Shown: positions 47,990 through 64,000 of the stretch, piece after piece
Layout: each line of letters begins with the position of its first letter
How positions within the stretch are numbered: the first letter of the stretch is position 1
IMG/VR virus record: IMGVR_UViG_3300020048_000108
Length of the DNA stretch: 64,000 nucleotides
Direction: 5' to 3' (one strand)
From: an uncultured virus (IMG/VR IMGVR_UViG_3300020048_000108)
Lineage: Duplodnaviria; Heunggongvirae; Uroviricota; Caudoviricetes
Notes under the pieces: generated by a model
What the model was told of the DNA's origin: nothing
Databases searched by the model: none
Seen by the model: only the letters and a program-made list of their open reading frames with translations
Made by a program: the position numbers and the translations under genes

Positions 47990-49900
47990 TTATAATCTTA
48001 CGAGTTCTCCGTTTGTATAGCTTGATGTGACCAAATAAGTTGTTCCAGATGTATCAGAACCTGAAGAAATTACATCTGATAACATAGTTATACTACTATT
48101 ACTAGTATCTAGTTGTAAATACAAATCCTGCAATCCAATCACATCATTTGATTTTGGAATTGCTGAAATTTGAATAGTTGCATTCCCATCAACAAATTTT
48201 AAAGATGAGATGATTTTTACTGGATTTAATTTAATTTCACCTTTCTCATAATCAATAACACCAACATTTTTTCTTACTATTGATGGTTCAGTAGTAGAAT
48301 TTAATTTGAAGAAAAAGATACTTCCAAATTTTCCATTTGCATTGGGAATATCTGAAAGATATATTGTATCGAATATTCCACTTATAGTAAATCCGGATGA
48401 TTTGATATTATAACCAAGGGCATTTTTAATATGAAATTCATTTCCATAACATATCTCATAGTCGGCAAACTTATTTAATGCAGGTCTCAAATCACGTCTC
48501 ATCAATACTTTCGTGATGTTAGAAGTAATGGATACGTCACTGTCATCAATAATTTTTAAAAATTTACTATATTTGAATCTTGCACCAAATTTATTCAATT
48601 CTGTAGAATCTGCATATTGATTAATATTTGAAGAAACAATTGATTTTACATAATCTGGACTTATGGAAGAATTTGTATTATAATAAACTGTTGATGAGAT
48701 TTCAATATAAAGATACTTCAGATCTAAAAATTCTGGAACAATACCAGCAACAGTATATTTTCTAAGTTTGGATTGTAGATTGATCTTGATTGGTTCTGGA
48801 ACATATGGTCCATTAAAAGGTTTTATTGATATAAAAACCTTTCCATACCTAGGTGGAACCAAATCTTCGCCCCCAAATACAGAAACTGATTCTGTTTCTG
48901 GATAAATTTTTGGAATAATTGCTTCATAATCAGATGAAGTTACTGCACGATTCTGAGCAGAATAAATTTGTGGAGCATACTTTTTAATAGAATCTATGGA
49001 TTCAATTTCCTTTCCACTTTGAGAAGAGGTATTAGTTGTAACCAACGAAATTCCACTTGCTATCACTCTTGCATTATTGTCAATCAGTCTTCCATTGAAG
49101 GAAAAACTTGATATATTATTTCCATATATGCCGTTTGTGACAATATATGACACCTCAATATAATTCGTGTTTTCTAATTTTTGACCAAATACTCCGTCTC
49201 CAAAAATTAACTCATATCTTTGATCTTCAATCTCCTGAATAAAGAAAACTCTTGAATCCGAAGTAACATCAAATAAACTATTGGATAATATAAATTTTCT
49301 AGACGTTGTACTTTCTTCAGTATTTCTAACTTTTGTTGAAATTAAAGAAGTGTCGATATTTGCATTTTCTAAAATAAATTTCTGATTTGGATTATTCGAA
49401 TCGACAGTAAAGTTTGTAGTTAAAAATGTTCCTTCATAGATATCAATACCATCAAAAAGTGCAATTCCATTAACTACTGGAACAGTAATATCCTCCGTAA
49501 TAGCAAAAGAAAAACTTTGACTACCAAAAGAAGAACTTGTGGTGCTTACAGTTCCTTTTTTGAGAGTTAATGTTAGAGGTTTTATTGAGAGATCTGTAGT
49601 ATCAACAAAGAAAGAAATATTTGCACGAGATGCAGTTCTTGATCTTGGGACATATCCAATATTTCTTGCAAGAGAAACAACATTCTCTCTTAATGTTGCA
49701 CCATCAATAAAAACCTCATTGCTAATCATATTAGCATTATATGAGGAAATATATGTATTATAAGCAAGCACATCAATTAATACTGATAGATTAGATCCTT
49801 CAAAATCATAATCAGTAAAATTTGAATTCGATCGAAGGTATTCCTTGATCGAAATTTTAATTTGATCGAAATCTAGATTTGTAAAATTGACTAATGCCAT
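47990..49900 (-). CDS. gp6: Baseplate wedge subunit
   Basis: FTDYDFEGSNLS, AQNRAVTSSDY. Confidence 0.94.
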   Translation of the reverse strand: MALVNFTNLDFDQIKISIKEYLRSNSNFTDYDFEGSNLSVLIDVLAYNTYISSYNANMISNEVFIDGATLRENVVSLARNIGYVPRSRTASRANISFFVDTTDLSIKPLTLTLKKGTVSTTSSSFGSQSFSFAITEDITVPVVNGIALFDGIDIYEGTFLTTNFTVDSNNPNQKFILENANIDTSLISTKVRNTEESTTSRKFILSNSLFDVTSDSRVFFIQEIEDQRYELIFGDGVFGQKLENTNYIEVSYIVTNGIYGNNISSFSFNGRLIDNNARVIASGISLVTTNTSSQSGKEIESIDSIKKYAPQIYSAQNRAVTSSDYEAIIPKIYPETESVSVFGGEDLVPPRYGKVFISIKPFNGPYVPEPIKINLQSKLRKYTVAGIVPEFLDLKYLYIEISSTVYYNTNSSISPDYVKSIVSSNINQYADSTELNKFGARFKYSKFLKIIDDSDVSITSNITKVLMRRDLRPALNKFADYEICYGNEFHIKNALGYNIKSSGFTISGIFDTIYLSDIPNANGKFGSIFFFKLNSTTEPSIVRKNVGVIDYEKGEIKLNPVKIISSLKFVDGNATIQISAIPKSNDVIGLQDLYLQLDTSNSSITMLSDVISSGSDTSGTTYLVTSSYTNGELVRL

Positions 49901-53455: not shown

Positions 53456-53485
53456 TACACCTAGGGGACACTTTGAAGGCCCCAG
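53456..53485 (-). repeat. 30-bp intergenic element, copy 1
   Basis: + strand tacacctaggggacactttgaaggccccag. Confidence 0.95.
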
Positions 53486-53513
53486 AGTAGATTATCTCTG
53501 GGGTTGTGATCGT

Positions 53514-53684
53514 TCAGACTGCCTTACTGATACGATCAAAGTCTAACCAAATGGCACGATCTGTTCCGATTGAAGTCTCAAAGTCCCAGACAAGATGTGT
53601 GGCATTCCTTCTATCAACACTGAAAGTCTCACAGATAGAATCTACTGCCTGACTGAAAGAAGTGAAACGTTTGATAGGAGTCAT
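53514..53684 (-). CDS. Hypothetical protein (56 aa)
   Basis: MTPIKRFTSF...; start re-assigned to avoid overlap with the upstream gene. Confidence 0.6.
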   Translation of the reverse strand: MTPIKRFTSFSQAVDSICETFSVDRRNATHLVWDFETSIGTDRAIWLDFDRISKAV

Positions 53685-53718
53685 TTTGAAGATTGTATGG
53701 ATGAATGTGTAAAGATTC

Positions 53719-54045
53719 TCAGGCAAGTCGCATTCCAGAGAAGAAAGGAATTGTGGAATACTCTGCACCCCACTTCGAACGCAGGAACCAAGTGTATGCC
53801 TTCTGAAATACACCTTCTCCTTCGATTCCGTGCACTTGAAGAATAGCATTCAGGCGGGACTTGGTGGTGTTTGACTGATACCCACCATCATAAAGACGAA
53901 TGAAACCCTCACCAACCTCTGCGATCTTGTTACCGTGCAAGTATACAAAACTCACACCGTTAATGTTAACAACTTCGGTGTTATCTTGCTTCCAATCAGT
54001 ACCGTTGGTGATAGCAGCATTCATCAGAACTTCGATCTTGCGCAT
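53719..54045 (-). CDS. Conserved phage hypothetical protein
   Basis: VYLHGNKIA, TTKSRLNAI motifs. Confidence 0.75.
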   Translation of the reverse strand: MRKIEVLMNAAITNGTDWKQDNTEVVNINGVSFVYLHGNKIAEVGEGFIRLYDGGYQSNTTKSRLNAILQVHGIEGEGVFQKAYTWFLRSKWGAEYSTIPFFSGMRLA

Positions 54046-54094
54046 GATGAGAATTGAGTGAGGTTTGAGTGACTTGGGGATTTTCGTTCTCCCC

Positions 54095-54124
54095 TACACC
54101 TAGAGGACACTTTGAAGGCCCCAG
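54095..54124 (-). repeat. 30-bp intergenic element, copy 2
   Basis: tacacctagaggacactttgaaggccccag. Confidence 0.95.
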
Positions 54125-54133
54125 GCATCTTTA

Positions 54134-54295
54134 TCAGTCCCGGTCGAACTCCTCAATGTATACTTCAACCCTCTCTGATGGTTCAAGGTTGAATAGTTTT
54201 TCAAAGTCAATATCGCGGGCATTGAAATCACTTTGCACATTAAGATCCAGAGTGATTCGTACATGTTGCTTGTGTGCAATCTGATAAGAAACCAT
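54134..54295 (-). CDS. Hypothetical protein (53 aa)
   Basis: MVSYQIAHKQHVRITLDL...; GGAGG RBS and a sigma70 promoter upstream. Confidence 0.65.
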   Translation of the reverse strand: MVSYQIAHKQHVRITLDLNVQSDFNARDIDFEKLFNLEPSERVEVYIEEFDRD

Positions 54296-54326
54296 GGGAA
54301 AGTCCTCCGTTTGTGTTGGTGAAAGT

Positions 54327-54355
54327 AGTCTAATATAGGGTGAGGTAGATGTCAA
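54327..54355 (-). promoter_or_regulatory. Sigma70 promoter
   Basis: TTGACA-17 nt-TAGACT. Confidence 0.7.
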
Positions 54356-54430
54356 GTACCTTGGGGGTATTTATGAGGGGTTGTAGGGGATTTTGGAGGG
54401 GTTCTGTGGGGGTTTTGTGACCATGGGGTA

Positions 54431-54459
54431 TTGACAGATTTGCAAAGTGACGTTATAAT
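54431..54459 (+). promoter_or_regulatory. Consensus sigma70 promoter firing into non-coding repeats
   Basis: TTGACA-17 nt-TATAAT exact. Confidence 0.75.
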
Positions 54460-54485
54460 GCATGCAAAGATCACAAGGTCTCGGA

Positions 54486-54600
54486 GGGTTTAAATGATTC
54501 AAAGAGACTTACACCTGGGGGTTTAAATGATTCAAAGAGACTTGCTAACCTCAAGGGTTATAAGCATTCAAAGAGACTTGCTAACCTCAAGGGTTATAAG
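54486..54600 (+). repeat. Tandem 25-bp repeats, period 33-36 bp (3 full, 1 partial)
   Basis: gggtttaaatgattcaaagagactt at 54486 and 54519; gggttataagcattcaaagagactt at 54555; gggttataag at 54591. Confidence 0.9.
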
Positions 54601-54675
54601 AGTTTTCCACAACTATCTAAAACACTCATATACATTAATTAATACATTTATAATCGTTTTTTATTGTTTTTTACC

Positions 54676-54990
54676 TTATTTTGATGGTAAATGATGTTGT
54701 ATCATCTCAATCCACTGATCTACCCATTCCTTGGATGCAGTAAACTTGATGGTTCTATTGTATTTCTTTTGTCCTCCAATGTGAGTATAAACATCAACTG
54801 AAACATTGCGAGAATCTGATTCATCAACCTGGTATGCACCAAGGACTAACAAATGATTGAAACTATCAACTTGTGCAATAATGGCAGATCCAGATTCGTT
54901 CGATTCAATATCCAGACTCCAAGGATTAGAGACAGGAGAGACTGCAATCCGATCAGTAACTGAGAGAGTAGTGTAACTAGTCATCATCAT
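54676..54990 (-). CDS. Hypothetical protein
   Basis: 104 aa ORF. Confidence 0.65.
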   Translation of the reverse strand: MMMTSYTTLSVTDRIAVSPVSNPWSLDIESNESGSAIIAQVDSFNHLLVLGAYQVDESDSRNVSVDVYTHIGGQKKYNRTIKFTASKEWVDQWIEMIQHHLPSK

Positions 54991-55004
54991 TTTGTGGTTT
55001 TTGA

Positions 55005-55207
55005 TTAGTTAAAACGTGATGCGAAAACTTGTGCATCTTTTTGTTTTTTGAAAGAGCGAAACTCTTTCGTTACCCAATAGCAATCACCTCGCAGAGTGTT
55101 TTCTTTGTAACAATCAACTTGAACATTCCAACCATTTTCAGACTTTCTAACCCAGACTTNNNNNNNNNNACTTTAACATCACCGAGAGTTGGAAGAATGT
55201 AAGTCAT
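55005..55207 (-). CDS. Hypothetical protein spanning an N gap
   Basis: MTYILPTLGDVK/VWVRKSENGW...FASRFN; AAGT is duplicated across the gap; AAGGAG RBS. Confidence 0.55.
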
Positions 55208-55231
55208 TTTGTGGCGAACTCCTTTGACTCT

Positions 55232-55435
55232 TTAAGAATAGCAGGTTTCAGACGCTGTGCTCATTTTGTGTGCCACCTTCTCAACTGGCACAGAGTAACG
55301 TTCTTTATACTGAATCATGTAATCTAGCAGTTCTCCAATATTCTTACGAACGTACTCATTGCGAAGTCCGGCATAATCATAAGCATCGTACAGTTTATGA
55401 TACATTTCATCCCATTCTGTTTGAGTCATATTCAA
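55232..55435 (-). CDS. Hypothetical protein
   Basis: 67 aa ORF; 3' end overlaps a promoter box. Confidence 0.55.
   Translation of the reverse strand: MNMTQTEWDEMYHKLYDAYDYAGLRNEYVRKNIGELLDYMIQYKERYSVPVEKVAHKMSTASETCYS
55235..55291 (-). promoter_or_regulatory. Palindromic-box promoter (box 55270-55291, TATTCT 55235-55240)
   Basis: gtgccaccttctcaactggcac 29 bp from agaata. Confidence 0.75.
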
Positions 55436-55656
55436 ACCACCACATATTCAAGAGTTTGAATACACCAACCAGTTTCGTCAGTGATCATATCTGCAAGATA
55501 CTCTAGAAAGTCTTCTTCATATTCAAAATCTTCTTCACATTCGTATACCTTACCAATCGTTTCGTTTGTGAGTTCAACCTGATAAGATTCGGGCAAAACT
55601 TCATTCTCATCATCACACTCGAAGTCATACTCAATATCAGTGATTTGAACTTTCAT
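55432..55656 (-). CDS. Very acidic hypothetical protein
   Basis: 74 aa, D/E-rich. Confidence 0.7.
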   Translation of the reverse strand: MKVQITDIEYDFECDDENEVLPESYQVELTNETIGKVYECEEDFEYEEDFLEYLADMITDETGWCIQTLEYVVV

Positions 55657-55688
55657 GATTGTTTGTTTGATGAAGTTGTGGAAGTTAA

Positions 55689-55877
55689 TCAGGCAGCACA
55701 GAAGGCAGAAGTATAATCTACTTCGCGAATCTCCATCAGAGCATAATCATAATCATTCTCAAGTTCCTCGCGGTAGGCATCAGCAGCAGACTTGCAATCG
55801 AACAGGCGCAGAGTATCGAACTCTGACCCGTCGTACTCATAACCACCGATCACAGCGTAGACTTGCATTTTGAACAT
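55689..55877 (-). CDS. Acidic hypothetical protein
   Basis: MFKMQVYAVIGG...; start re-assigned downstream of the repeat. Confidence 0.7.
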   Translation of the reverse strand: MFKMQVYAVIGGYEYDGSEFDTLRLFDCKSAADAYREELENDYDYALMEIREVDYTSAFCAA

Positions 55878-55900
55878 TTTGGAGTTTTGCGTTGTGTCCC

Positions 55901-55930
55901 TACACCTAGGAGACACTTTGAAGGCCCCAG
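55901..55930 (-). repeat. 30-bp intergenic element, copy 3
   Basis: tacacctaggagacactttgaaggccccag. Confidence 0.95.
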
Positions 55931-55939
55931 GCATCTTTA

Positions 55940-56125
55940 TCAGATCAAGGTGGGGAATGGTTGTAGAAATACCCATTCATACTCTCCGTCTTCTGGATCT
56001 ACCCCATCGACAACAAACTCGGAATAGATTGCATCTGATGTGGCATAATCTTTGAGAGATACAAAATACATACAACGCTCCATGAACGTATCAGTCAGGG
56101 CATCAATCAGTTGTTGTTTTTGCAT
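55940..56125 (-). CDS. Hypothetical protein
   Basis: 61 aa ORF. Confidence 0.65.
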   Translation of the reverse strand: MQKQQLIDALTDTFMERCMYFVSLKDYATSDAIYSEFVVDGVDPEDGEYEWVFLQPFPTLI

Positions 56126-56163
56126 AATGAAGAAAGTGAATTGAATGAATAGAAAAATGAACT

Positions 56164-56592
56164 TTAGAAAGTGCTAGAGAATACGAAACCATCTACGAAA
56201 TCAAAATCATACTTAAGATTCTGATTCCAGGTTGCTTCCCAATCAATCACCAGACCTGCAGGAAGACTATCATAACCATACACACTCTCATAGTATTCTT
56301 CGGCAAAGGTTTCTTCATCAATGTATGAACCTTGATAAGCATGTCTTACGTTCTCAACATAACCCATATTGCCGTGATAGTTAACGAATGCATCGACAAC
56401 ATCGTAACCAAGATCCTCACCAACGCAGACGTATTCTTCATAATAGGCAATGAAATCATCTTCGGAGTGCAGATCAATGAACTCCAGAATGCATCCAAGA
56501 TCATAAGAATCTTCTTCGATCAGTTGTTGAATCTTCTCTAGAGTTTCCAGAGCAAACACTTCTTTGTAGTTAGCAGTCAGAGTGACGGTCAT
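56164..56592 (-). CDS. ardA: ArdA-like antirestriction (DNA-mimic) protein
   Basis: Highly acidic; C-terminal YQGSYIDEETFAEEY...IDWEATW...DFDFVDGFVF resembles the ArdA C-terminal pattern. Confidence 0.7.
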   Translation of the reverse strand: MTVTLTANYKEVFALETLEKIQQLIEEDSYDLGCILEFIDLHSEDDFIAYYEEYVCVGEDLGYDVVDAFVNYHGNMGYVENVRHAYQGSYIDEETFAEEYYESVYGYDSLPAGLVIDWEATWNQNLKYDFDFVDGFVFSSTF

Positions 56593-56630
56593 TGGTGTAA
56601 TGAATGAGTTTGAAATTGGACTTGAAAAGA

Positions 56631-56870
56631 CTATACAGTAACAGCAGACTTGCCGAAGGTACGAATCAACATCTCTTGAAACTTTTGCTTGTTACCATTC
56701 TCCCAGCGGAGAAGATCTTCGGCAATAAGTGCATCATGAAACTGTTGAGTTTCCATCATCGACAGACCAGGATAGGCACGAGCATTCTTAATACAATCGG
56801 CAGTGTAGTTCAACTGAAACTCAATACCTGCGTCGGTCGAATCTTTCACGAAGGAGTAATCTTTTTGCAT
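56631..56870 (-). CDS. Hypothetical protein
   Basis: MQKDYSFV...; start 20 nt downstream of repeat copy 4. Confidence 0.65.
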   Translation of the reverse strand: MQKDYSFVKDSTDAGIEFQLNYTADCIKNARAYPGLSMMETQQFHDALIAEDLLRWENGNKQKFQEMLIRTFGKSAVTV

Positions 56871-56890
56871 TGTGGTTTCGTTTGTGTCCT

Positions 56891-56920
56891 TACACCTAGG
56901 GGACACTTTGAAGGCCCCAG
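56891..56920 (-). repeat. 30-bp intergenic element, copy 4
   Basis: tacacctaggggacactttgaaggccccag. Confidence 0.95.
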
Positions 56921-56932
56921 GTTAGATTATCA

Positions 56933-57109
56933 TCACAAAGGAAGTTTGCCTAGTGGTTTGCCTTTCTTGTGTGCTTCAATGTAATTTCGTGCTGATGATT
57001 CGGTCCTGCAAAGTTTATCAAGTTGCTGACCATTGTGTATGATAAGATACTGATTTGCATACAAGATTCCTGCATATTCGCCATTATTCACTATGAATCC
57101 TTTCTTCAT
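56933..57109 (-). CDS. Hypothetical protein (58 aa)
   Basis: Manual translation MKKGFIVNNGEYAGILYANQYLIIHNGQQLDKLCRTESSARNYIEAHKKGKPLGKLPL. Confidence 0.6.
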   Translation of the reverse strand: MKKGFIVNNGEYAGILYANQYLIIHNGQQLDKLCRTESSARNYIEAHKKGKPLGKLPL

Positions 57110-57196
57110 TTTTACACTTTCAAAAAAACAGGTGATTTTATTTGACTGGACGACCTTTCATACGGATGGGGCAAAAATCGCAGAAAATCACGTTTT

Positions 57197-57219
57197 GACC
57201 CCAGTGGTGGACTGGGGTC
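57197..57219. other. Perfect 9-bp hairpin downstream of the helicase gene
   Basis: GACCCCAGT-GGTGG-ACTGGGGTC. Confidence 0.7.
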
Positions 57220-57230
57220 TCGTGTGAGAC

Positions 57231-58475
57231 TCACCTGCGAACGGTGCTGATAGCAGGTTCGCCCTCAACAAAAATTGTATTAACAACCGACTCAACTGCG
57301 CTGGCAGTAGCTACACCAACCTTGCTGTACACTGGAATACAAACCAGACCGAACGATTTGGTATAGGAACTCAAATCGCCTGGTTGAATAGCACCAGACT
57401 GCAACTTGGCAGCATCATCATGATGCAAACGAATGACTCGTCCAATAGTCTGCGAGATGGAAATAAAGTCCATGTTTCGCATAAACAATACTGCCTCAAG
57501 TCCTGACACATTGATACCCTCACTCAAAATGCTGTGATGTAGAACAACAAACTTCTTTGAGTTATCCTTACCCCATGCAGATAGGGTATCAAAAAAGACT
57601 TCACGATTGACTTTCTGACCATCAATAACCGCACCAGTCTTGGCAGTAATGTACATCCAAGAGTATCCACGTTGATTGAGTTTGGAGCAGAAATCAGTTT
57701 GTGATACCAGTGCCACGATTTGCTTTGTCGTCTTTGCACAGATCAGAATCTTGCCGACAGAGTTCTCATCAATCGTTTCCAGAAGATTCTCTGAATCACG
57801 ATCGAAGTTAGTCTGCTTTCCGACTAACATTGGCAGTTGCTTGACTACAACTTTAGGGGGCACAATATACCCACCAGCAACTAGTTCAGGAGCAGCAACT
57901 TTGCAGATAACCTGACCATAAACCTCAACATCATTCATTCCAGGTTTACCCACTGCCAGACTATGTTTAGGAGTTGCCGTCAGGAAGAAACAACGATTTG
58001 CATCCGCAGAAAAATACTCTGTTGCAGGAAAGAAGTTACGTTTGACGCTATTATGTGCCTCATCAAAGTAGATCGTATCCACATCAATCTCGGCATCTTG
58101 AAGACGCGAAAGAGAGTTGTAGGTGGTAAAGATAATTTTGTGTGAGGACTTGTGATTCTCTACCCACTGACGAATTACAAGAGGACGAGTAGAAGATTCG
58201 TGATGCGTTTCTCCACTGTGAACGTGAAAGACTTCAGCATTGATGATAAACTCCAGAAACTCGCTAGAGAGTTGCTCTGCAAGCAGAATGCGAGGAGCAA
58301 CAACAACAACCGTGTGAGGAGTTTCTGATTGAAACTGCCGAAGAGCATCATAGATCATCTTGAGAGTCTTTCCACCCCCAGTAGGAACAATCAGTTGACC
58401 CTTATCATACTTCTGCATTGCAGAAATACCACGTTGTTGATGCGGACGAAGTTGAGTTTGCATGAGATTCATCAT
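57231..58475 (-). CDS. Superfamily 2 DEAH helicase (type III restriction Res-like); start may be 58463
   Basis: LRPHQ, PTGGGKT, DEAH, TATP, SEGINV, QTIGRVIR; no nuclease domain visible. Confidence 0.88.
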   Translation of the reverse strand: MMNLMQTQLRPHQQRGISAMQKYDKGQLIVPTGGGKTLKMIYDALRQFQSETPHTVVVVAPRILLAEQLSSEFLEFIINAEVFHVHSGETHHESSTRPLVIRQWVENHKSSHKIIFTTYNSLSRLQDAEIDVDTIYFDEAHNSVKRNFFPATEYFSADANRCFFLTATPKHSLAVGKPGMNDVEVYGQVICKVAAPELVAGGYIVPPKVVVKQLPMLVGKQTNFDRDSENLLETIDENSVGKILICAKTTKQIVALVSQTDFCSKLNQRGYSWMYITAKTGAVIDGQKVNREVFFDTLSAWGKDNSKKFVVLHHSILSEGINVSGLEAVLFMRNMDFISISQTIGRVIRLHHDDAAKLQSGAIQPGDLSSYTKSFGLVCIPVYSKVGVATASAVESVVNTIFVEGEPAISTVRR

Positions 58476-58504
58476 CTAACAAGAGAACAATTTAAAGGAC
58501 CCAG
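58475..58504 (-). repeat. 30-bp intergenic element, degenerate copy 5 (21/30 identity)
   Basis: tctaacaagagaacaatttaaaggacccag, same position relative to the flanking stop and start. Confidence 0.65.
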
Positions 58505-58506
58505 AT

Positions 58507-58668
58507 TCAGTTACCATTCAGAAAGTCGTGAATTGCTTCCTGATACTCTTCAAAGGTCGCGTAACGATTCTGAAGATGTTTGGGAACTTCCTTACAGATA
58601 GGACGATTACATTCTGCAATCGTGTATCCTTTCTGTTGAACGTAGTCAGTATAAACGGATTGAGTCAT
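58507..58668 (-). CDS. Hypothetical protein (53 aa)
   Basis: MTQSVYTDYV... Confidence 0.6.
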   Translation of the reverse strand: MTQSVYTDYVQQKGYTIAECNRPICKEVPKHLQNRYATFEEYQEAIHDFLNGN

Positions 58669-58675
58669 TTTGAGA

Positions 58676-58828
58676 TTAACGATAGTAGGCACAAGAAACC
58701 CAGGAAGGAATACCAGCAGCATCAAGATTAGAGTTGATACGATCTACCTCTCTCTCTGCAACTTCCTCATCATGAGTTTCATAAAGAAGTTCGGCATTGC
58801 CGTCTTGAGTCTGATAAATGTGGAACAT
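58676..58828 (-). CDS. Hypothetical protein (50 aa)
   Basis: MFHIYQTQDG...; start 20 nt downstream of repeat copy 6. Confidence 0.6.
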   Translation of the reverse strand: MFHIYQTQDGNAELLYETHDEEVAEREVDRINSNLDAAGIPSWVSCAYYR

Positions 58829-58848
58829 TTTGAGTCGGTTTATGTCCT

Positions 58849-58878
58849 TACACCTAGGAGACACTTTGAAGGCCCCAG
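58849..58878 (-). repeat. 30-bp intergenic element, copy 6
   Basis: tacacctaggagacactttgaaggccccag. Confidence 0.95.
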
Positions 58879-58890
58879 GTTAGATTATCC

Positions 58891-59154
58891 CTACCACGTT
58901 CCACGTTGTACATGAATCTTGCGAATCTCTCCATAAATGAACTTTTTAAGTTTCTCGTCTGTGGTATTATCAAAGGCATAATGCAGGCGATTTAGGTAAT
59001 CATCCTGTGTGGCACATTTGACTACTTTTGAGTTTGTCATTCCGATTTCATTGAGTGACGAACCTGCTTTCCTTCGTGGTTGGGAGATTGCACCAGATGT
59101 TCTAAACTTGGTAGAAATCTTTGAGAGATTGGATGTTGCAAAATCAAGTTTCAT
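58891..59154 (-). CDS. Hypothetical protein
   Basis: 87 aa basic ORF. Confidence 0.65.
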   Translation of the reverse strand: MKLDFATSNLSKISTKFRTSGAISQPRRKAGSSLNEIGMTNSKVVKCATQDDYLNRLHYAFDNTTDEKLKKFIYGEIRKIHVQRGTW

Positions 59155-59192
59155 AAAGGATAAATAATAGGTAACTTTGGTTTAATTTTCTA

Positions 59193-59912
59193 ATGATACA
59201 TAAACATCACCTTATTCCTAAACATAGAGGTGGAAGCGATGATCCATCAAATCTTGTAAAAGTTACACCAACTCAACACGCTATGTTTCATTATTGTGAA
59301 TGGAGATTGTGGGGAAGTCATAAAGATTTTTGTGCTTACAAAATGATTTTGGGTGATGTTAAAAATCCAGAGTTTAGGAGAGCAAGAAATGAAGCATTTA
59401 AGGAGATTATTTTAGAAGGTGGAAGAAAATGGAGAGAGAATAATCCAGATAAAGTTAGAGAAAATGGAATGAAAGGAAATAAATCTCAAAGGGAAAAACT
59501 TAAGAAATACAATAGAGAAATCGCACAACAAAAGTGGGAAGTTATAACACCAAATGGAGAGATAATAATCATAGAGAACATAGCAAAGTTTTGTTTAGAA
59601 AACAATTTGCAAAAATCAAAAATGACTTTAGTATCACAAGGACAAAGAAAACATCATAAAGGTTACAAATGTCGTAAGATAACTGGAAATGTTAATGAAT
59701 ATGATGGTGAATTGTCTTTATTTGAGTGGGAAATAACAACACCAAATAATGAAGTTTTTGTTGTAGAAAACTTAAAGACTTTTTGTGTTGAAAATAATCT
59801 TAAAGAAGGAATGGTGTATAGAGTTGGAAGAGGAGAAAGAAAACACCATAAAGGTTATAGAGTTAGAAAAGTTGTTAAACAGGTTAAAAACTATTTGGAT
59901 AGGTTGGAGTAA
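59193..59912 (+). CDS. HNH homing endonuclease with duplicated C-terminal DNA-binding modules
   Basis: HHLIPKHRGGSDDPSNLVKVTPTQHAMFH; two WEIxTPN...FCxENNL...RKHHKGY repeats; TAAATA at 59161-59166 upstream. Confidence 0.85.
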   Translation: MIHKHHLIPKHRGGSDDPSNLVKVTPTQHAMFHYCEWRLWGSHKDFCAYKMILGDVKNPEFRRARNEAFKEIILEGGRKWRENNPDKVRENGMKGNKSQREKLKKYNREIAQQKWEVITPNGEIIIIENIAKFCLENNLQKSKMTLVSQGQRKHHKGYKCRKITGNVNEYDGELSLFEWEITTPNNEVFVVENLKTFCVENNLKEGMVYRVGRGERKHHKGYRVRKVVKQVKNYLDRLE

Positions 59913-59918
59913 GTCATT

Positions 59919-60152
59919 TCAGTTACTTTCAGCAATTTGGTTGAGAACGTTACGGGCAAACTTCATAAAACCATAGGCAGTCACAGCACCACAAGGACCA
60001 CTATAACCAGTGCTAATTTCATAACTATCAAGCAAATCTGAACCATTGTAAGTATTCACAATCAGCAGACAAGCATCATACAATGCTGCTTGATGTTCTT
60101 CTTTTGAGTGAAACTGAATTGCGTTGTAACCAGTAGGAAGAGTCATAATCAA
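59919..60152 (-). CDS. Hypothetical protein
   Basis: 77 aa ORF. Confidence 0.6.
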   Translation of the reverse strand: MIMTLPTGYNAIQFHSKEEHQAALYDACLLIVNTYNGSDLLDSYEISTGYSGPCGAVTAYGFMKFARNVLNQIAESN

Positions 60153-60430
60153 ACTAGATTAAGTTGAGGAGCAGGTTGAACAGAAAAGGTGCCGATTCTG
60201 TCGCAAGTGATAGAAACAGTATCATAAGGAGCACCGATTTCATCTACCACTTCCCAGTAATCTTCACCCTCTTCAATTACAGCATAACCGAAAGTTCCGG
60301 CATTTGAGAGTTGATCAAGACCACAACGTTCTGCTTGTCGTTGTGTGGAGAATCGCTCTTTACGATTCCACCAACCGTTTCGGGCAACATCATCAGAAGG
60401 TCCGAAAGTGATGCAGATAAAGTCAGTCAT
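60149..60430 (-). CDS. Hypothetical protein
   Basis: 93 aa ORF starting 25 nt downstream of repeat copy 7. Confidence 0.7.
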   Translation of the reverse strand: MTDFICITFGPSDDVARNGWWNRKERFSTQRQAERCGLDQLSNAGTFGYAVIEEGEDYWEVVDEIGAPYDTVSITCDRIGTFSVQPAPQLNLV

Positions 60431-60455
60431 TTAAAGTCGGTTTGAGTTTGATCCT

Positions 60456-60485
60456 TACACCTAGGGGACACTTTAAAGGCCCCAG
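60456..60485 (-). repeat. 30-bp intergenic element, copy 7
   Basis: tacacctaggggacactttaaaggccccag. Confidence 0.95.
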
Positions 60486-60500
60486 GATAGATTATTCATA

Positions 60501-61364
60501 TTAAAACCTCACCAGGTTAAAGTTAGCAGCAGAAAAGCATTCTCGATTTACAAGTTTGAAAATCAGATTATCGCTCTTGTAGACGAAACCTTCACCGACA
60601 ATCTTCTGATCTTGAATATAAGCAACAGGATTATCCGTTACAATCATACAGTCCATCAAATCTTCCTTAACCTCAATCATCGTAAGATACAGATCTGCAA
60701 GTTCGCGACTACCAAGAATGTGAGTAAGATTGTCCCAGTTCAGTTCATCACCTTCACGAATCAGTGCATTGATTTGTTTCTTTGCTTCTACTGCTTCCTT
60801 TACATTCAGGAAGAGAACATTAGAGGTATCAATCTTTGGGAGATTGATAGGAAGAAAATCTACGCAAGGTTGAACAAACTTCACATTCTCGGTATCACTA
60901 AAGAATGGTGCGCTACCGATTACATAGGCATTCTTCAGTTCATCATCAGTATGCCAAATAGTATGAGGAGCAACAATAATGTTTTGATCAACTACTTCAG
61001 AAAACTTGTAAGTGACCGTATTGGGGCAATAAGTATCAGAACCGCCAAAACCAATAAAATCACATTGATAGATAGACTCTGTGACAGGCAGATAATCAAA
61101 GCAAGCATGAAGAATATCTGCAACCTGACCCGTGTGGTTCTTATCAATTTCTTCATGAGAATGATTGATTTTGAGTTTAACTTTGTTGAAGACAGATTTA
61201 GTGCCGACACACCATTTGCCGTTTGCAGGATTTGTACCAAAAACTACACTGGGACTGCCATCTATCTTAAGGGAAACTTCATAATCAGAATTGAAGAAAT
61301 TGAGGATAGAAAGATCTCCCGTGAGAATGCAATCTTCGAAGTGTTCTTGGTGTTTGTTTTGCAT
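60501..61364 (-). CDS. Conserved cyanophage protein with covalent nucleotidyltransferase (ligase-like) motifs
   Basis: KIDG (motif I), YQCDF (III), EGFV (IV), FKLV (V). Confidence 0.65.
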   Translation of the reverse strand: MQNKHQEHFEDCILTGDLSILNFFNSDYEVSLKIDGSPSVVFGTNPANGKWCVGTKSVFNKVKLKINHSHEEIDKNHTGQVADILHACFDYLPVTESIYQCDFIGFGGSDTYCPNTVTYKFSEVVDQNIIVAPHTIWHTDDELKNAYVIGSAPFFSDTENVKFVQPCVDFLPINLPKIDTSNVLFLNVKEAVEAKKQINALIREGDELNWDNLTHILGSRELADLYLTMIEVKEDLMDCMIVTDNPVAYIQDQKIVGEGFVYKSDNLIFKLVNRECFSAANFNLVRF

Positions 61365-61370
61365 GATCTT

Positions 61371-61429
61371 AGTATGACACAGAATCCGGAAGATTTCAAG
61401 TGGTCGTGTGCCAGTTTCAGAACCGGCAC
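61371..61429 (-). promoter_or_regulatory. Palindromic-box promoter (box 61408-61429, CATACT 61371-61376)
   Basis: gtgccagtttcagaaccggcac 31 bp from agtatg. Confidence 0.7.
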
Positions 61430-61445
61430 ACCTTAAGAGTTTTAG

Positions 61446-61634
61446 TTACTTACGAAGAGGAGAATTGCCAAAGGAACGAAACACAGAAACGACAATGATA
61501 AGCGTCGAAACAATACCAACCATGCCAAGGAAGGTAACACCATTGCCAGTAAAATCGAGAGTATTAACTGTAGTCATTTCAGTCATTTCAGGTAAGTTTG
61601 ATGTAAGATTTGTTGATGATAGTTTGCCACTCAT
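61446..61634 (-). CDS. Small single-pass membrane protein (true start possibly further downstream)
   Basis: Hydrophobic VTFLGMVGIVSTLIIVVSVF segment. Confidence 0.6.
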   Translation of the reverse strand: MSGKLSSTNLTSNLPEMTEMTTVNTLDFTGNGVTFLGMVGIVSTLIIVVSVFRSFGNSPLRK

Positions 61635-61697
61635 TGGATGCCGAAAGTCGTTGATCTACGATTACCCAACGACCTTGAAACTTAATAAGTTTTCTCA

Positions 61698-61832
61698 TCA
61701 GTAATCAATGTTAGAGTTCAGGTAATCGTTAACGTTAAACTTTTCTTCATCAAGTTCGCGAAGTTCGGGAATATCAAGGTCAAAGATTTCACCTTGCATA
61801 TCTTGAATCTCGCTCCAAAGTTCGTCGTACAT
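61698..61832 (-). CDS. Small very acidic protein (44 aa)
   Basis: MYDELWSEIQDMQGEIFDLDIPELRELDEEKFNVNDYLNSNIDY. Confidence 0.6.
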   Translation of the reverse strand: MYDELWSEIQDMQGEIFDLDIPELRELDEEKFNVNDYLNSNIDY

Positions 61833-61860
61833 TGTTTCGGTGCTTGTGGTTGTCTTTGTA

Positions 61861-61918
61861 ATCATAAGGCACCTAGAGCGTCTTCTAGGTGCCACTGCGG
61901 CAGTTTCTAAAGTGTCAC
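61861..61918 (-). promoter_or_regulatory. Palindromic-box promoter (box 61897-61918, TATGAT 61861-61866) with a 10-bp hairpin in the spacer
   Basis: gcggcagtttctaaagtgtcac 30 bp from atcata; ggcacctaga-gcgtct-tctaggtgcc. Confidence 0.65.
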
Positions 61919-61919
61919 A

Positions 61920-62087
61920 TCATACTTCATAGAACTTATAGTGACGAATCTCTGACTGATAGAATGCTTGATCTTCGGAATCATTACAGAAACCGAGAAG
62001 ATAGTTGCACATTTCGACCCGGTGATTACAAACATCTTGCAGAATCTCAGGATTACGTTGGAAGCAGTTGTTAAAGTCAACAATCAT
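61920..62087 (-). CDS. Hypothetical protein (55 aa)
   Basis: Manual translation MIVDFNNCFQRNPEILQDVCNHRVEMCNYLLGFCNDSEDQAFYQSEIRHYKFYEV. Confidence 0.55.
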   Translation of the reverse strand: MIVDFNNCFQRNPEILQDVCNHRVEMCNYLLGFCNDSEDQAFYQSEIRHYKFYEV

Positions 62088-62111
62088 CGGAATTCCCTCA
62101 GCAACAAATGT

Positions 62112-62169
62112 AGAATAACAGGATTTTGTGTCGTTTGGTGATTTTGTGTGCCACCTTGACGACTGGCAC
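62112..62169 (-). promoter_or_regulatory. Palindromic-box promoter (box 62148-62169, TATTCT 62112-62117)
   Basis: gtgccaccttgacgactggcac 30 bp from agaata. Confidence 0.75.
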
Positions 62170-62197
62170 AGGAGGATTCAGTTGATTATAAGGGGGA

Positions 62198-62226
62198 TTG
62201 ACAAAGTACGAAATCTGTATTAGACT
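62198..62226 (+). promoter_or_regulatory. Sigma70 promoter, antisense, into a non-coding region
   Basis: TTGACA-17 nt-TAGACT. Confidence 0.65.
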
Positions 62227-62411
62227 AGGTTTGTCATCAATGAAGATAAGTTGTATCTAATACTTTAAAGGGATGAGGTATAAAAGGGGGAAGGACACCA
62301 CTCCTTCCCTGATAGCAACCTACACCTTTATTTTTTATAATATCACCACAGGAGTAACTTTAACNNNNNNNNNNAGTCAACAATCATTCGGATTCCGTCA
62401 GCAACAAATGT

Positions 62412-62469
62412 AGAATAACAGGTTTCAGCGACGTTTGGTGGTTTTCTGTGCCACCTTTACAACTGGCAC
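62412..62469 (-). promoter_or_regulatory. Palindromic-box promoter (box 62448-62469, TATTCT 62412-62417)
   Basis: gtgccacctttacaactggcac 30 bp from agaata. Confidence 0.75.
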
Positions 62470-62673
62470 ATCATCATTCAATTGTACCTGCAGTTGAGAA
62501 ACAATTGTATCAACGAATGCCAGAACAGTTTGCATTACTTTAAGAACCATTTCTTTACCATTGTTTTCATTGAAGGCACGAACCGAATACTGGAAAACAC
62601 CAACAACGATTGCGGAGATAGTAGCAACATTGAAAATCAGAGTTTGATAGAAGTTTTTGTAGTAATCTTGCAT
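62425..62673 (-). CDS. Hypothetical protein with an N-terminal hydrophobic segment
   Basis: 82 aa ORF downstream of repeat copy 8. Confidence 0.6.
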   Translation of the reverse strand: MQDYYKNFYQTLIFNVATISAIVVGVFQYSVRAFNENNGKEMVLKVMQTVLAFVDTIVSQLQVQLNDDVPVVKVAQKTTKRR

Positions 62674-62707
62674 TTTGTTTTTGGTTTAGTGCTGTGAGGA
62701 TCACCCT

Positions 62708-62737
62708 CACACCTAGGCGACACTTTCAAGGCCCCAG
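62708..62737 (-). repeat. 30-bp intergenic element, copy 8
   Basis: cacacctaggcgacactttcaaggccccag. Confidence 0.9.
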
Positions 62738-62739
62738 AG

Positions 62740-63480
62740 TTAAATCATAAAACTCAAAAGTGGATTATTGATACGATCTCGTGCTACCGTAAAATACTTT
62801 TCTTCCCTTTCAATTCCGATAAAATTTCTATTACAATTGACTGCAGCAACTCCAGTAGTACCACTTCCCATACAAGGATCTAAAATCACATCATTCTCAT
62901 TGGAAAAAGTACGAATAAGATACTCATATAGCAACACAGGTTTCTGTGTTGGATGATACTTACCTTCAGATTCTGCGGTTTTAAAATAGATTACACTTCT
63001 TGGGTAGCGAAGTCCAGTATCATTTTTAACATGTACTTCTTTAGTTTGCACTCCATATGCTTCAGTATCTCTTACTGCCTTACCCTTATCATACGGAGTT
63101 CCTTGTGTCATTTGTGGGTTATATGTGGGTTGTTTTTTATAAAAAACAACCACCTCTTCATGAGCACGAAGAGGTTGCTTCTTTGCATTCAAATAACCAG
63201 AGGACTTTGACTTCTCCCATACCATCGTGTACTTAAAATGTTCATAGTTTGAAGCAATCAGAACACTTGTAAATGGTTGTGCTGCTGTAGAAATAACAGC
63301 ACAATTTGGTTTGCATATCATATCAACTTTTTTCCAGAATGTTGGATAATCAATGATACTATCCCATTCATTCCTCTTATTAAGTGTTCCGTAGGGAAAA
63401 TCTGTCAACAACAAATCAATACTTTGGAGTTCAAGATTGCCCAAAACATTGAACATATCGTCATTGAATAACTGAATCAT
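62740..63480 (-). CDS. DNA N6-adenine/N4-cytosine methyltransferase (beta class)
   Basis: TDFPYG (motif IV) precedes HPTQKP and DPCMGSGTT (motif I). Confidence 0.92.
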   Translation of the reverse strand: MIQLFNDDMFNVLGNLELQSIDLLLTDFPYGTLNKRNEWDSIIDYPTFWKKVDMICKPNCAVISTAAQPFTSVLIASNYEHFKYTMVWEKSKSSGYLNAKKQPLRAHEEVVVFYKKQPTYNPQMTQGTPYDKGKAVRDTEAYGVQTKEVHVKNDTGLRYPRSVIYFKTAESEGKYHPTQKPVLLYEYLIRTFSNENDVILDPCMGSGTTGVAAVNCNRNFIGIEREEKYFTVARDRINNPLLSFMI

Positions 63481-64000
63481 TTTTGCAACCACTCTACAAA
63501 TTTATTATAACTCACCTCGTCAAGTTTGAAGTCGGCACGATAGTCTGCATTGTAAATAGGACGCTTTGAACTGCGTTTGCGGTAAGGATTAATAAAGAAA
63601 ATATTCAAATCCTTACCAGTTAGTTCTTTGAAAAGTGCAAGATAATATGCAAGAGAATCTTTACGACAAGCATTCTGGCCAGCAAAGATTGCAAACTCTA
63701 CATCATCAGGAACATCAGGAGATTGATCAAGTCCAATAAAATTAAGGATTGCACGTTCAAGATTGCAAAGATCCAAATAAGTCTTGCACTCTATCATTTT
63801 TTTCAATACACCTTGAATATAGACGTGAGCGTCAACTTGAAGATTGTTCAAGCACCTACCACCAACTATCATTGTTCTTTTGTAATCATTCTTTTTCGGA
63901 TCAAAACCCAAATATTCACAAGTTTTGAAAGCGAGATTCTCATAGACTGTACCTGAACCAGACCTCGCCTTACCTCCCCCCTTATTTTTATGAAGGAGAG
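63477..64000 (-). CDS. PD-(D/E)xK nuclease, putative restriction endonuclease (5' end outside the window)
   Basis: Frame is open to the window edge (...GSGTVYENL...QVDAHVY...IECKTYLD); ATGA overlap with the methyltransferase. Confidence 0.65.
   Translation of the reverse strand, partial: LLHKNKGGGKARSGSGTVYENLAFKTCEYLGFDPKKNDYKRTMIVGGRCLNNLQVDAHVYIQGVLKKMIECKTYLDLCNLERAILNFIGLDQSPDVPDDVEFAIFAGQNACRKDSLAYYLALFKELTGKDLNIFFINPYRKRSSKRPIYNADYRADFKLDEVSYNKFVEWLQK

What the first reader, a model, noticed from the sequence alone, without database searches (positions are those of the whole stretch)
53456..62737. Dispersed 30-bp element that partitions the hyperplastic region into gene cassettes
SEEN: coding-strand consensus CTGGGGCCTT(C/T/G)AAAGTGTC(C/T/G)(C/T)CTAGGTGT(A/G) at 53456, 54095, 55901, 56891, 58849, 60456 and 62708 (27-30 of 30 identical), plus a degenerate copy at 58475. 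All share one orientation and sit at gene junctions: 2-28 nt after a stop codon and about 11-49 nt before the next ATG. Spacing is 374-2252 bp, each interval holding one to several small unrelated genes. Flanks fall into subfamilies (gcatctttatcag after copies 2 and 3; gttagattatc after 4 and 6, with variants after 1 and 7), suggesting recent copying or recombination. I saw no copy in the first 53 kb. It has no sigma70 -35/-10 and no TATAAATA. It is an imperfect inverted repeat (CTGGGG...CCCCTAG); three of the four substitutions in the C-run are C>T and would keep G-U pairs. KNOWN: repeated promoter cassettes (PeSL) mediate gene shuffling in some T4-type coliphages, but those contain sigma70 promoters. 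INFERENCE: either a non-sigma70, phage-specific promoter (its near-invariant compact form recalls single-subunit RNAP promoters), an RNA processing signal, or a recombination site of an integron-like cassette array. Best candidate here for an undescribed system.
Basis: partly seen in the sequence, partly recalled or inferred. Interest (0 to 1): 0.9.

Follow-up and report, generated by a model that had tools for sequence, protein, structure and literature searches.

The report
Cyanophage promoter paired with packaged protein
A virus of cyanobacteria puts the same short signal in front of its small early genes; in related viruses the signal changes in step with one basic protein that looks packed into the virus particle, so the virus probably injects its own key to switch these genes on.

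Summary
The seven copies are real. They belong to a motif family of a sub-group of T4-like cyanophages (S-SM2, P-TIM68, S-B05), absent from Syn9 and P-SSM2. Best reading: a non-sigma70 early promoter starting at the purine after ..TAGT/..AGGT. In relatives an ATG sits there in 310 of 716 copies and is in frame in 301. Element-bearing genomes encode an unnamed basic ~200-aa protein with a T4-type capsid-targeting N-terminus and a late promoter; six element-free genomes lack it. Its C-terminal part tracks the upstream box (nearest neighbour same box 38 of 39; helicase 8 of 39). Its N-terminal part tracks the downstream half, which accounts for this window's odd CTAGGT tail. The gene lies outside the window but is present in a close relative. 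No RNA or binding data were obtained. Hairpin and integron-like readings fail: breakpoints are no more frequent at elements than at other junctions (p=0.27). The scan found this family, and the link to an injected protein, before on other DNA; the two-ended code and the start-site argument are added here.

The parts
62708..62737 (-). Element copy (3 mismatches); inferred +1 at 62710; heads ORF 62673-62425
60456..60485 (-). Element copy; inferred +1 at 60458; heads ORF 60430-60149
58849..58878 (-). Element copy; inferred +1 at 58851; heads ORF 58828-58676. Relative L213/L214 has an extra gene plus an extra copy here
58475..58504 (-). Degenerate copy (9 mismatches) in front of the helicase; ATG 2 nt after the inferred +1; kept at the same place in L213/L214
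56891..56920 (-). Element copy; inferred +1 at 56893; heads ORF 56870-56631 and the anti-restriction-like gene. L213/L214 has an extra gene plus an extra copy here
55901..55930 (-). Element copy; inferred +1 at 55903; heads ORF 55877-55689
54095..54124 (-). Element copy; inferred +1 at 54097; heads Kyano_Gp96 gene 54045-53719
53456..53485 (-). Element copy; inferred +1 at 53458; heads DUF7249 gene 53417-53142
61408..61429 (-). Second promoter class: palindrome upstream of a sigma70-like -35/-10; the ATG of the DUF6267 gene (61364) is the 7th base after the -10 hexamer
55270..55291 (-). Second promoter class: palindrome about 35 nt upstream of a TAnnnT hexamer
62148..62169 (-). Second promoter class: palindrome (one of a 300-bp duplicated pair)
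62448..62469 (-). Second promoter class: palindrome (other member of the pair)
57231..58475 (-). Helicase used as anchor for relatives
60501..61364 (-). DUF6267 gene: headed by the palindromic class here and by the element in S-SM2, SynMITS9220M01 and L338

Best explanation
The repeat is this lineage's form of a phage-specific early promoter. Transcription most likely starts at the purine right after the ..AGGT (in relatives ..TAGT), so the conserved letters lie at about -37 to +8: a lineage-specific upstream part (-37 to -17), AAAGTG at -16 to -11, and a tail at -6 to +2. It is read with the help of a basic ~200-aa protein of an unnamed family that is made late, packed into the head through a T4-type capsid-targeting N-terminus and injected with the DNA. 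The protein lies along the promoter in the orientation of a sigma factor: its C-terminal arm, helix and tail match the upstream box and its N-terminal segment matches the downstream half. It probably recruits or redirects host RNA polymerase. SHOWN: the repeat, its distribution, the in-frame ATG at +1 in relatives, co-occurrence and segment-wise covariation with the protein. INFERRED: promoter function, position of +1 in this window, early timing, packaging, DNA binding, activation. Cassette gain and loss between copies is a passive by-product of homology.
For: (1) Start site: of 716 distinct copies in relatives, 310 read ATG directly after the tail; that ATG opens a frame of 40 codons or more in 301, against 2 and 11 in the other frames; GTA copies show no such bias (88/5/47 of 211); 68 of the 301 have no other ATG/GTG/TTG in frame within 60 nt. 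A sigma70 -10 at TATAGT or TAGTAT would start the RNA behind that ATG. (2) The DUF6267 gene has its ATG at the 7th base after a TAnnnT-type hexamer in the window, L214, L332 and P-SSM2, and directly after the element in S-SM2, SynMITS9220M01 and L338: the two promoter classes replace each other and both fit a leaderless start. (3) One strand, one region: 12 of 12 matches in the whole S-SM2 genome lie at 42.7-58.5 kb on the coding strand. (4) Co-occurrence: element and protein both present in S-SM2, SynMITS9220M01, S-B05, P-TIM68, G002, G003, G005; both absent in Syn9, P-SSM2, S-SCSM1, S-SRM01, B3, S-SKS1. (5) N-terminal consensus MKTFQEF..EA matches T4 IPI-III as translated from the T4 record; TAAATA lies 23-33 nt upstream of 46 of 46 such genes and within 60 nt in 50 of 54 further ones, against 122 of 1691 ORFs of the same loci and 0 of 24 early-region genes of the window. 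(6) Among 43 distinct proteins the nearest neighbour by the last 62 aa has the same box in 38 of 39 testable cases; N-terminal half 27, adjacent small gene 15, helicase 8. (7) Sliding windows along 49 proteins give a collinear map: N-segment with core (r 0.57) and tail (0.33), arm with -20..-17 (0.53-0.54), helix with box (0.69), last residues with -37..-28 (0.63); last 55 columns with tail 0.02. In 44 held-out loci, with the copy next to the gene dropped, the C-segment again tracks upstream/box/link (partial r 0.28-0.41, 0 of 3000 permutations) and not core, tail or +1..+8. (8) SynMITS9220M01 has a chimeric C-terminus and its box follows the helix alone. (9) The window's odd tail: relative L214 and 8 other loci with three other boxes share one N-terminal type; 37 of their 39 copies have C at -6, against 14 of 676 elsewhere; CTA(A/G)GT 10 against 0.
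Against: No transcript, binding or virion-proteome data were obtained. The protein gene is not in the window; synteny with L214 puts it near 64.9-65.5 kb, and L214 is only 84-91% identical over shared blocks. G001 (82% complete, starts inside the array) also has elements but no such gene. Among 80 helicase-anchored loci 62 show the protein; of the 18 without, 15 hold under 1.4 kb upstream of the helicase, L332 has no element, and L374 and L381 (2.3 and 2.7 kb upstream) are unexplained (counted). None of the window's seven copies has ATG at +1, so its +1 rests on alignment. A copy usually abuts the protein's stop codon, so linkage could carry C-terminus and box together; it does not explain the N-terminal link. 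Loci are related: strict independent-pair tests had only 2-4 pairs each, none in the opposite direction but none significant, and helicase and the small gene also carry some box signal (23 and 21 changes against a shuffled minimum of 24). Held-out exact box prediction was 20 of 45 (29 within one mismatch); 11 of the 16 larger misses had no close training protein, 5 did. In the held-out set the N-segment also tracked the box (0.31), and its links to core and tail were weak (0.18 and 0.22; 104 and 48 of 3000 permutations). The N-terminal types were defined after seeing the data. G003 and L547 carry a few copies with a foreign box. A 74-aa gene just upstream co-occurs as well.
Confidence: 0.6

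Rival explanations
1. The element is a promoter that host RNA polymerase uses without help, and the basic protein binds it for another purpose: shutting early genes off late in infection, or organising and shielding the early region during packaging and entry.
For: The gene is under a late promoter, which also fits a late repressor. T4 internal proteins are basic and DNA-associated (PMC3012670, passages). A host-type -10 can be drawn at nAAAnT (-17 to -12) with purines 6-8 nt downstream (my reading of the profile). Explains the covariation equally well.
Against: A capsid-targeting N-terminus is invariant, so the protein is more likely delivered at infection. With the nAAAnT register the ATG peak would sit about 5 nt inside the RNA; the core spacing shifts in S-B05 and that T is often C in S-SM2 and G005. 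No -35 or extended -10 is conserved.
Confidence: 0.17
2. An ordinary sigma70-type early promoter with -10 at TATAGT or TAGTRT, kept alike by gene conversion (PeSL-like); the covariation with the protein is hitchhiking.
For: Most copies in relatives contain TAnnnT in one of two registers, with a conserved C-A at +6/+7. Copies are homogenised within genomes (position -17: C in 5 of 7 in the window, G in 10 of 11 in L214). A copy abuts the protein's stop codon in most loci.
Against: 7 of 7 window copies read CTAGGTGT, with no TAnnnT in those registers; many lineages read AGTAGT. The in-frame ATG would lie upstream of the start. The N-terminal segment, about 500 nt from any downstream copy, tracks the tail across four boxes.
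Confidence: 0.12
3. An RNA-level signal: longer early transcripts are cut or bound here to create the 5' end or to boost translation, possibly by the same protein.
For: Also explains an ATG at a fixed position and the lack of sigma70 boxes; few terminators separate the units.
Against: No stable or conserved structure; about 35 conserved nt would lie upstream of the cut; positional exchange with a sigma70-like promoter class.
Confidence: 0.07
4. A dedicated recombination site of an integron-like cassette array.
For: Two exact element-to-element gene indels between the window and L213/L214; foreign-box copies in G003.
Against: Breaks at 144 of 304 element junctions against 291 of 669 other junctions, p=0.27. 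No integrase among 56 window proteins scanned. No conserved hairpin. Three other window/L214 differences are one-ended or not at elements.
Confidence: 0.04

Closest known systems
PeSL/PmSL cassettes of T4-type phages RB49/phi1, T4/PST, KVP40/nt-1 (PMC4122927, parts 1-2 of 3 read; PMC2839356, passages)
   Same: Repeated regulatory unit at gene junctions of a variable region; single genes lost or gained between two copies, leaving one copy.
   Different: PeSLs hold a sigma70 -35/-10 (or Mot box), an upstream stem-loop and a Shine-Dalgarno sequence; this element has none of these, often ends in the start codon, and covaries with a phage protein.
Early-gene regulatory element of Syn9 and P-TIM40 (Doron et al. 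2016, ISME J 10:1437; not held, recalled; only its citation was seen, in PMC6359870 and PMC9004378)
   Same: Same genomic region and the same genes; the palindrome-plus--10 class seen in Syn9 also occurs in this window, and its right half resembles the element's AAAGTG core.
   Different: Syn9 has no copy of this element and no homolog of the protein. I could not check whether the paper also shows this motif for S-SM2-type phages.
T4 internal proteins IPI-III and Alt (PMC9026906 and PMC3012670, passages)
   Same: Capsid-targeting N-terminus, basic, ejected into the host; Alt modifies host RNA polymerase to favour T4 promoters.
   Different: No similarity beyond the N-terminus; IPI inhibits a restriction enzyme and Alt is an enzyme; neither is described there as reading a promoter sequence.
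T4 MotA/AsiA middle promoters and gp55 late sigma (MotA box as described in PMC4122927; mechanism recalled)
   Same: A phage protein reads a phage-specific box and redirects host RNA polymerase.
   Different: Those factors are made after infection and are folded domains; MotA promoters keep a sigma70 -10. The protein here is predicted to be largely extended (pTM 0.27) and covaries with both halves of the promoter.
Virion-packaged RNA polymerases of N4 and phiKZ/AR9-type phages, and T7/SP6 promoters (recalled)
   Same: Early genes served by an injected protein; compact promoter conserved up to and across +1.
   Different: No polymerase gene found (control silent); the candidate is only about 200 aa.

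Membership tests
PeSL | sigma70 -35/-10 (or Mot box plus -10) inside the repeat | tested here: not met
   No conserved -35; window tail CTAGGTGT; in-frame ATG at +1 in relatives
PeSL | stem-loop just upstream of the promoter | tested here: not met
   No terminator-like site at any copy; fold z -1.06 to 0.02
PeSL | Shine-Dalgarno sequence before the start codon | tested here: not met
   Leaders are A/C-rich or absent
PeSL | gene indels bounded by two copies | tested here: met
   Two cases, window against L213/L214; no enrichment overall (p=0.27)
PeSL | mini-circles formed between copies | not testable with these tools
   Only contigs were laid; no circle-forming joint inside the element was listed
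Palindromic early promoter of Syn9 type | palindrome about 35 nt upstream of a TAnnnT hexamer (as seen in Syn9; link to Doron 2016 recalled) | tested here: not met
   The element has one half-site-like core and no palindrome; the palindromic class occurs separately in the window
Integron attC array | site-specific recombinase nearby | tested here: inconclusive
   None among 56 window proteins; the genome is incomplete and relatives were not searched for integrases
Integron attC array | conserved single-strand hairpin with covarying arms | tested here: not met
Single-subunit RNA polymerase promoter | T7-type polymerase in the genome | tested here: inconclusive
   0 of 5 element-bearing genomes or contigs match PF00940, but the control did not ring
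Promoter of an extra sigma70-family factor | second sigma gene besides gp55 | tested here: not met
   One Sigma70_r2 match per genome in 5 of 5, including S-SM2; divergent paralogs could be missed
T4-type internal (capsid-targeted) protein [the partner] | N-terminal targeting sequence with aromatic residues at 4 and 7 and a following Glu | tested here: met
   M1, F4, E12 invariant, T3 and F7 nearly so in 46 sequences; T4 IPs; PMC9026906
T4-type internal (capsid-targeted) protein [the partner] | present in virions, processed and ejected | not testable with these tools
   needs virion mass spectrometry

The most novel reading that the evidence does not exclude
A sub-group of T4-like cyanophages starts its early programme with an injected, largely disordered ~190-aa protein, unrelated to sigma70, that takes the place of sigma on host RNA polymerase: its C-terminal helix reads the upstream box, its N-terminal segment reads the melting region, and modules of the protein and parts of the promoter are swapped together, giving a natural protein-DNA code with more than ten box types.
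Probability: 0.3. Interest if true: 0.92.

Novelty: new variant of a known kind. Interest (0 to 1): 0.72.

Why it matters
How T4-like cyanophages switch on early genes without MotA/AsiA is open (PMC5780444 states that they lack T4-like middle promoters and motA/asiA). This gives a named candidate gene (S-SM2 gp065, SynMITS9220M01_053, P-TIM68 AIR93418) and a predicted start base in cultured phage-host pairs, so the question becomes directly testable. If right, it is a compact, orthogonal promoter-factor system for cyanobacteria with a natural specificity code, and it would mean that co-infecting relatives cannot freely use each other's early cassettes. The repeat alone, as a PeSL-like seam, would be ordinary.

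Tried and rejected
No whole genome is held for the window. No RNA holder listed, so no transcript test; four DNA runs kept as contigs were laid: they show strain variants, 10 listed joints, most not at elements, and cannot show RNA ends. Rfam: one chance-level match in 50-64 kb. The exact window consensus has 0 matches in IMG/VR; 17 loci matching the core plus CTAGGT had no box and no array and were dropped. A first pattern with wrong spacing gave 2 loci and was not used. Idea that CTAG/CCTAGG reflects the neighbouring methyltransferase: CTAG is not depleted or enriched (74 against 80 expected, 19 against 18); specificity of the enzyme not determined. SigF/sigmaB- and sigma54-type readings were considered from recalled consensus sequences and dropped because the matching letters change between lineages. 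A small acidic ORF first looked specific to element-bearing genomes but is missing in S-B05. The protein matches nothing significant in PHROGs, Pfam, NCBIfam, PDB sequences or named Atlas clusters; 3107 database proteins match at E<=0.001, none of the best 120 with a functional name (low complexity may inflate the count). The AlphaFold model has no globular fold (pTM 0.27; one confident helix, 144-170), so no fold search was run. Complex prediction with a host polymerase subunit was not available; nothing was folded. A blind test of the N-terminal rule on the CTTAGT lineage failed for lack of data: the three contigs found were already held and none holds the N-terminus. Doron 2016 is not held. 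Ten literature searches showed no paper describing this motif or protein; the library lacks most subscription papers, and Fig. S5 of PMC3037559 (promoter logos) was not seen.


Full report
Setting. The window is part of a T4-like cyanophage genome: gp25 is 60% identical to those of S-SM2 and S-B05, and the first 50 kb hold the usual head, tail and gp55 genes. The finding lies in the run of small genes upstream of gp25-gp6, the same place as the small-gene region of S-SM2 and Syn9. No whole genome is held.

Observation. Gaps after stops are 2-28 nt and the next ATG is 20-49 nt behind the 30-mer. The inverted repeat is not more stable than shuffled sequence and no Rfam family fits. A second class of signal, a palindrome about 35 nt upstream of a TAnnnT hexamer, occurs at four places in the same region; it is the only class seen in Syn9, P-SSM2, S-SCSM1 and S-SRM01.

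The family. A relaxed pattern finds at least 187 IMG/VR loci (scan stopped at its limit; 177 distinct copies, none with the window's CTAGGT tail). Anchoring on the helicase, without using the motif, 79 of 80 loci carry two or more copies. The layout is fixed: a lineage-specific upstream part, AAA(G/C/T)(T/C)G, four variable bases, a six-base tail ending in T, then purine-T. In S-SM2 all 12 matches lie in 16 kb on one strand. The window's tail recurs in three metagenome contigs of close relatives (two of them 99.9% alike): 6 of 11 copies in L214 and 2 of 3 in L212 read CTAGGT, the rest CTTAGT, CTTAAT, CTAAGT or CTTACT.

Where transcription starts. The family's TATAGT looks like a -10 box, but many lineages read AGTAGT and this one CTAGGT. 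Of 716 distinct copies, 310 continue with ATG; it opens a long frame in 301, against 2 and 11 in the other two frames, while GTA copies give 88, 5 and 47 of 211; 68 of the 301 have no other start codon in frame within 60 nt; first ATGs fall at 0 (301), rarely at 1-13 (38), and otherwise from 14 nt on. The copies come from related contigs and are not independent, but the contrast is large. The DUF6267 gene shows the same from another side: its ATG is the 7th base after a TAnnnT-type hexamer where the palindromic class drives it (window, L214, L332, P-SSM2) and follows the element directly in S-SM2, SynMITS9220M01 and L338. I infer that +1 is the purine after the tail, so that -12 to -7 reads TGTCCC-like and is not a sigma70 -10. 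None of the window's seven copies has ATG there; its +1 is carried over by alignment. No RNA data could be had.

A partner protein. No second sigma70-family gene and no T7-type polymerase (control silent) was found. Comparing whole records, three small genes of the same region were present in element-bearing genomes and absent from Syn9, P-SSM2, S-SCSM1 and S-SRM01. One encodes a basic protein of about 200 aa whose N-terminus matches those of T4 IPI-III; in T4 this sequence targets proteins into the head, and many of them are ejected into the host (PMC9026906, PMC3012670, passages). TAAATA stands 23-33 nt upstream in 46 of 46 cases and within 60 nt in 50 of 54 more, against 122 of 1691 ORFs in such loci; in the window it precedes 8 of 16 late-region genes and 0 of 24 early-region genes. 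A profile finds the protein in S-SM2, S-B05 and P-TIM68 and not in Syn9, B3, S-SKS1, P-SSM2, S-SCSM1, S-SRM01 or the truncated G001; only 10 of 50,697 phage records match, and the three new ones I fetched all carry copies. It has no family, solved relative or globular model. In L214 it lies at 7811-8371, 19 nt before a copy; by synteny it would lie just beyond the window's end.

Covariation. Among 43 distinct proteins the last 62 residues predict the box far better than neighbouring genes do (38, 27, 15 and 8 of 39 for C-terminus, N-terminal half, adjacent small gene and helicase; 11, 15, 21 and 23 changes on the trees for 11 states, shuffles at least 24). Along 49 proteins the best-correlated DNA segment moves upstream as one moves towards the C-terminus. 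The chimeric protein of SynMITS9220M01 follows its helix. On 45 held-out loci the box was predicted exactly in 20 and within one base in 29; 11 of 16 larger misses were new protein types with new, internally consistent boxes, 5 were not; 9 further loci had under three copies and were left out, and one search shows one to three copies in each of them. With the adjacent copy dropped, 44 held-out loci repeat the C-terminal link to the upstream half and its absence for the downstream half; the N-terminal link is clear for +1..+8, weak for core and tail, and confounded with the box. The window's tail fits: L214 and 8 other loci share an N-terminal type, and 37 of their 39 copies have C at -6 against 14 of 676 elsewhere (type defined after seeing the data). 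Strict independent pairs were too few for significance.

Cassettes. Window and L213/L214 differ by two exact element-to-element indels, two changes with one end at an element, and one unrelated replacement. Over the helicase-anchored set, 144 of 304 element junctions and 291 of 669 other junctions are broken against the closest partner (373 uncovered junctions left out), p=0.27. This is passive recombination of the PeSL kind (PMC2839356, PMC4122927), not a dedicated system. PMC4503421 (passages) judged PeSL shuffling unlikely for the S-PM2 ORFanage.

Novelty. Ten searches of the held library showed no description of the motif or the protein, but Doron 2016, the key paper on cyanophage early promoters, is not held, and what I say of it is recalled. 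Earlier notes of this scan report the same family on other genomes (seen, before my comparisons) and one reports the link between the upstream half and an injected protein (seen, after my); these are leads, not support. Added here are the start-site statistics with the DUF6267 comparison, the two-ended collinear map with a held-out repeat, and the explanation of the CTAGGT variant. Verdict: real; most likely a non-sigma70 early promoter served by a virion-packaged factor (0.6); a sigma-replacing factor is the boldest open reading (0.3).

Noticed in passing
window 61408-61429, 55270-55291, 62148-62169, 62448-62469, 375-395 (all minus strand): Palindromic promoter class of Syn9 type coexists with the element; its right half reads like the element's AAA(G/C)TG core. 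Why the two share this core is unexplained.
   Followed up: partly
window 62075-62484: 300-bp duplication, each unit with a palindromic site, with an N gap between; a contig of run X1 skips one unit, so it may be a strain variant or an assembly artefact.
   Followed up: partly
window 59193-59912 (+): HNH homing endonuclease in antisense orientation; absent from L213/L214 and skipped by a contig of run X1.
   Followed up: partly
window 54360-54675: Non-coding stretch with an exact 36-bp tandem repeat (54530-54600) and a perfect sigma70 consensus on the plus strand at 54431-54459.
   Followed up: no
window 56164-56592: Anti-restriction protein family match (phrog_36653) inside an element-headed unit.
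   Followed up: no
window 62740-63998: N4/N6 DNA methyltransferase with an unknown upstream partner, ending 2 nt before the first copy.
   Followed up: partly
window 19266-21905: Terminase large subunit of 879 aa, long for a T4-like gp17; an insertion such as an intein was not checked.
   Followed up: no
G003 49298 and 51021; L547 3083: Single copies carrying another lineage's box inside an otherwise uniform array, as if cassettes arrived with their own promoter.
   Followed up: no
window against L214, position -17 of the element: C in 5 of 7 window copies, G in 10 of 11 L214 copies, including orthologous sites: copies are homogenised within a genome.
   Followed up: partly
S-SRM01 (MW015081.1) 81.7-84.2 kb: Three genes with capsid-targeting-like N-termini, two with a late motif, inside the early region of an element-free phage; possible counterparts for the palindromic class.
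   Followed up: no
L413 9271-9495 (S-SM2 49271-49495): A 74-aa gene (phrog_3262) just upstream of the basic protein also co-occurs with the element but tracks the box poorly.
   Followed up: partly
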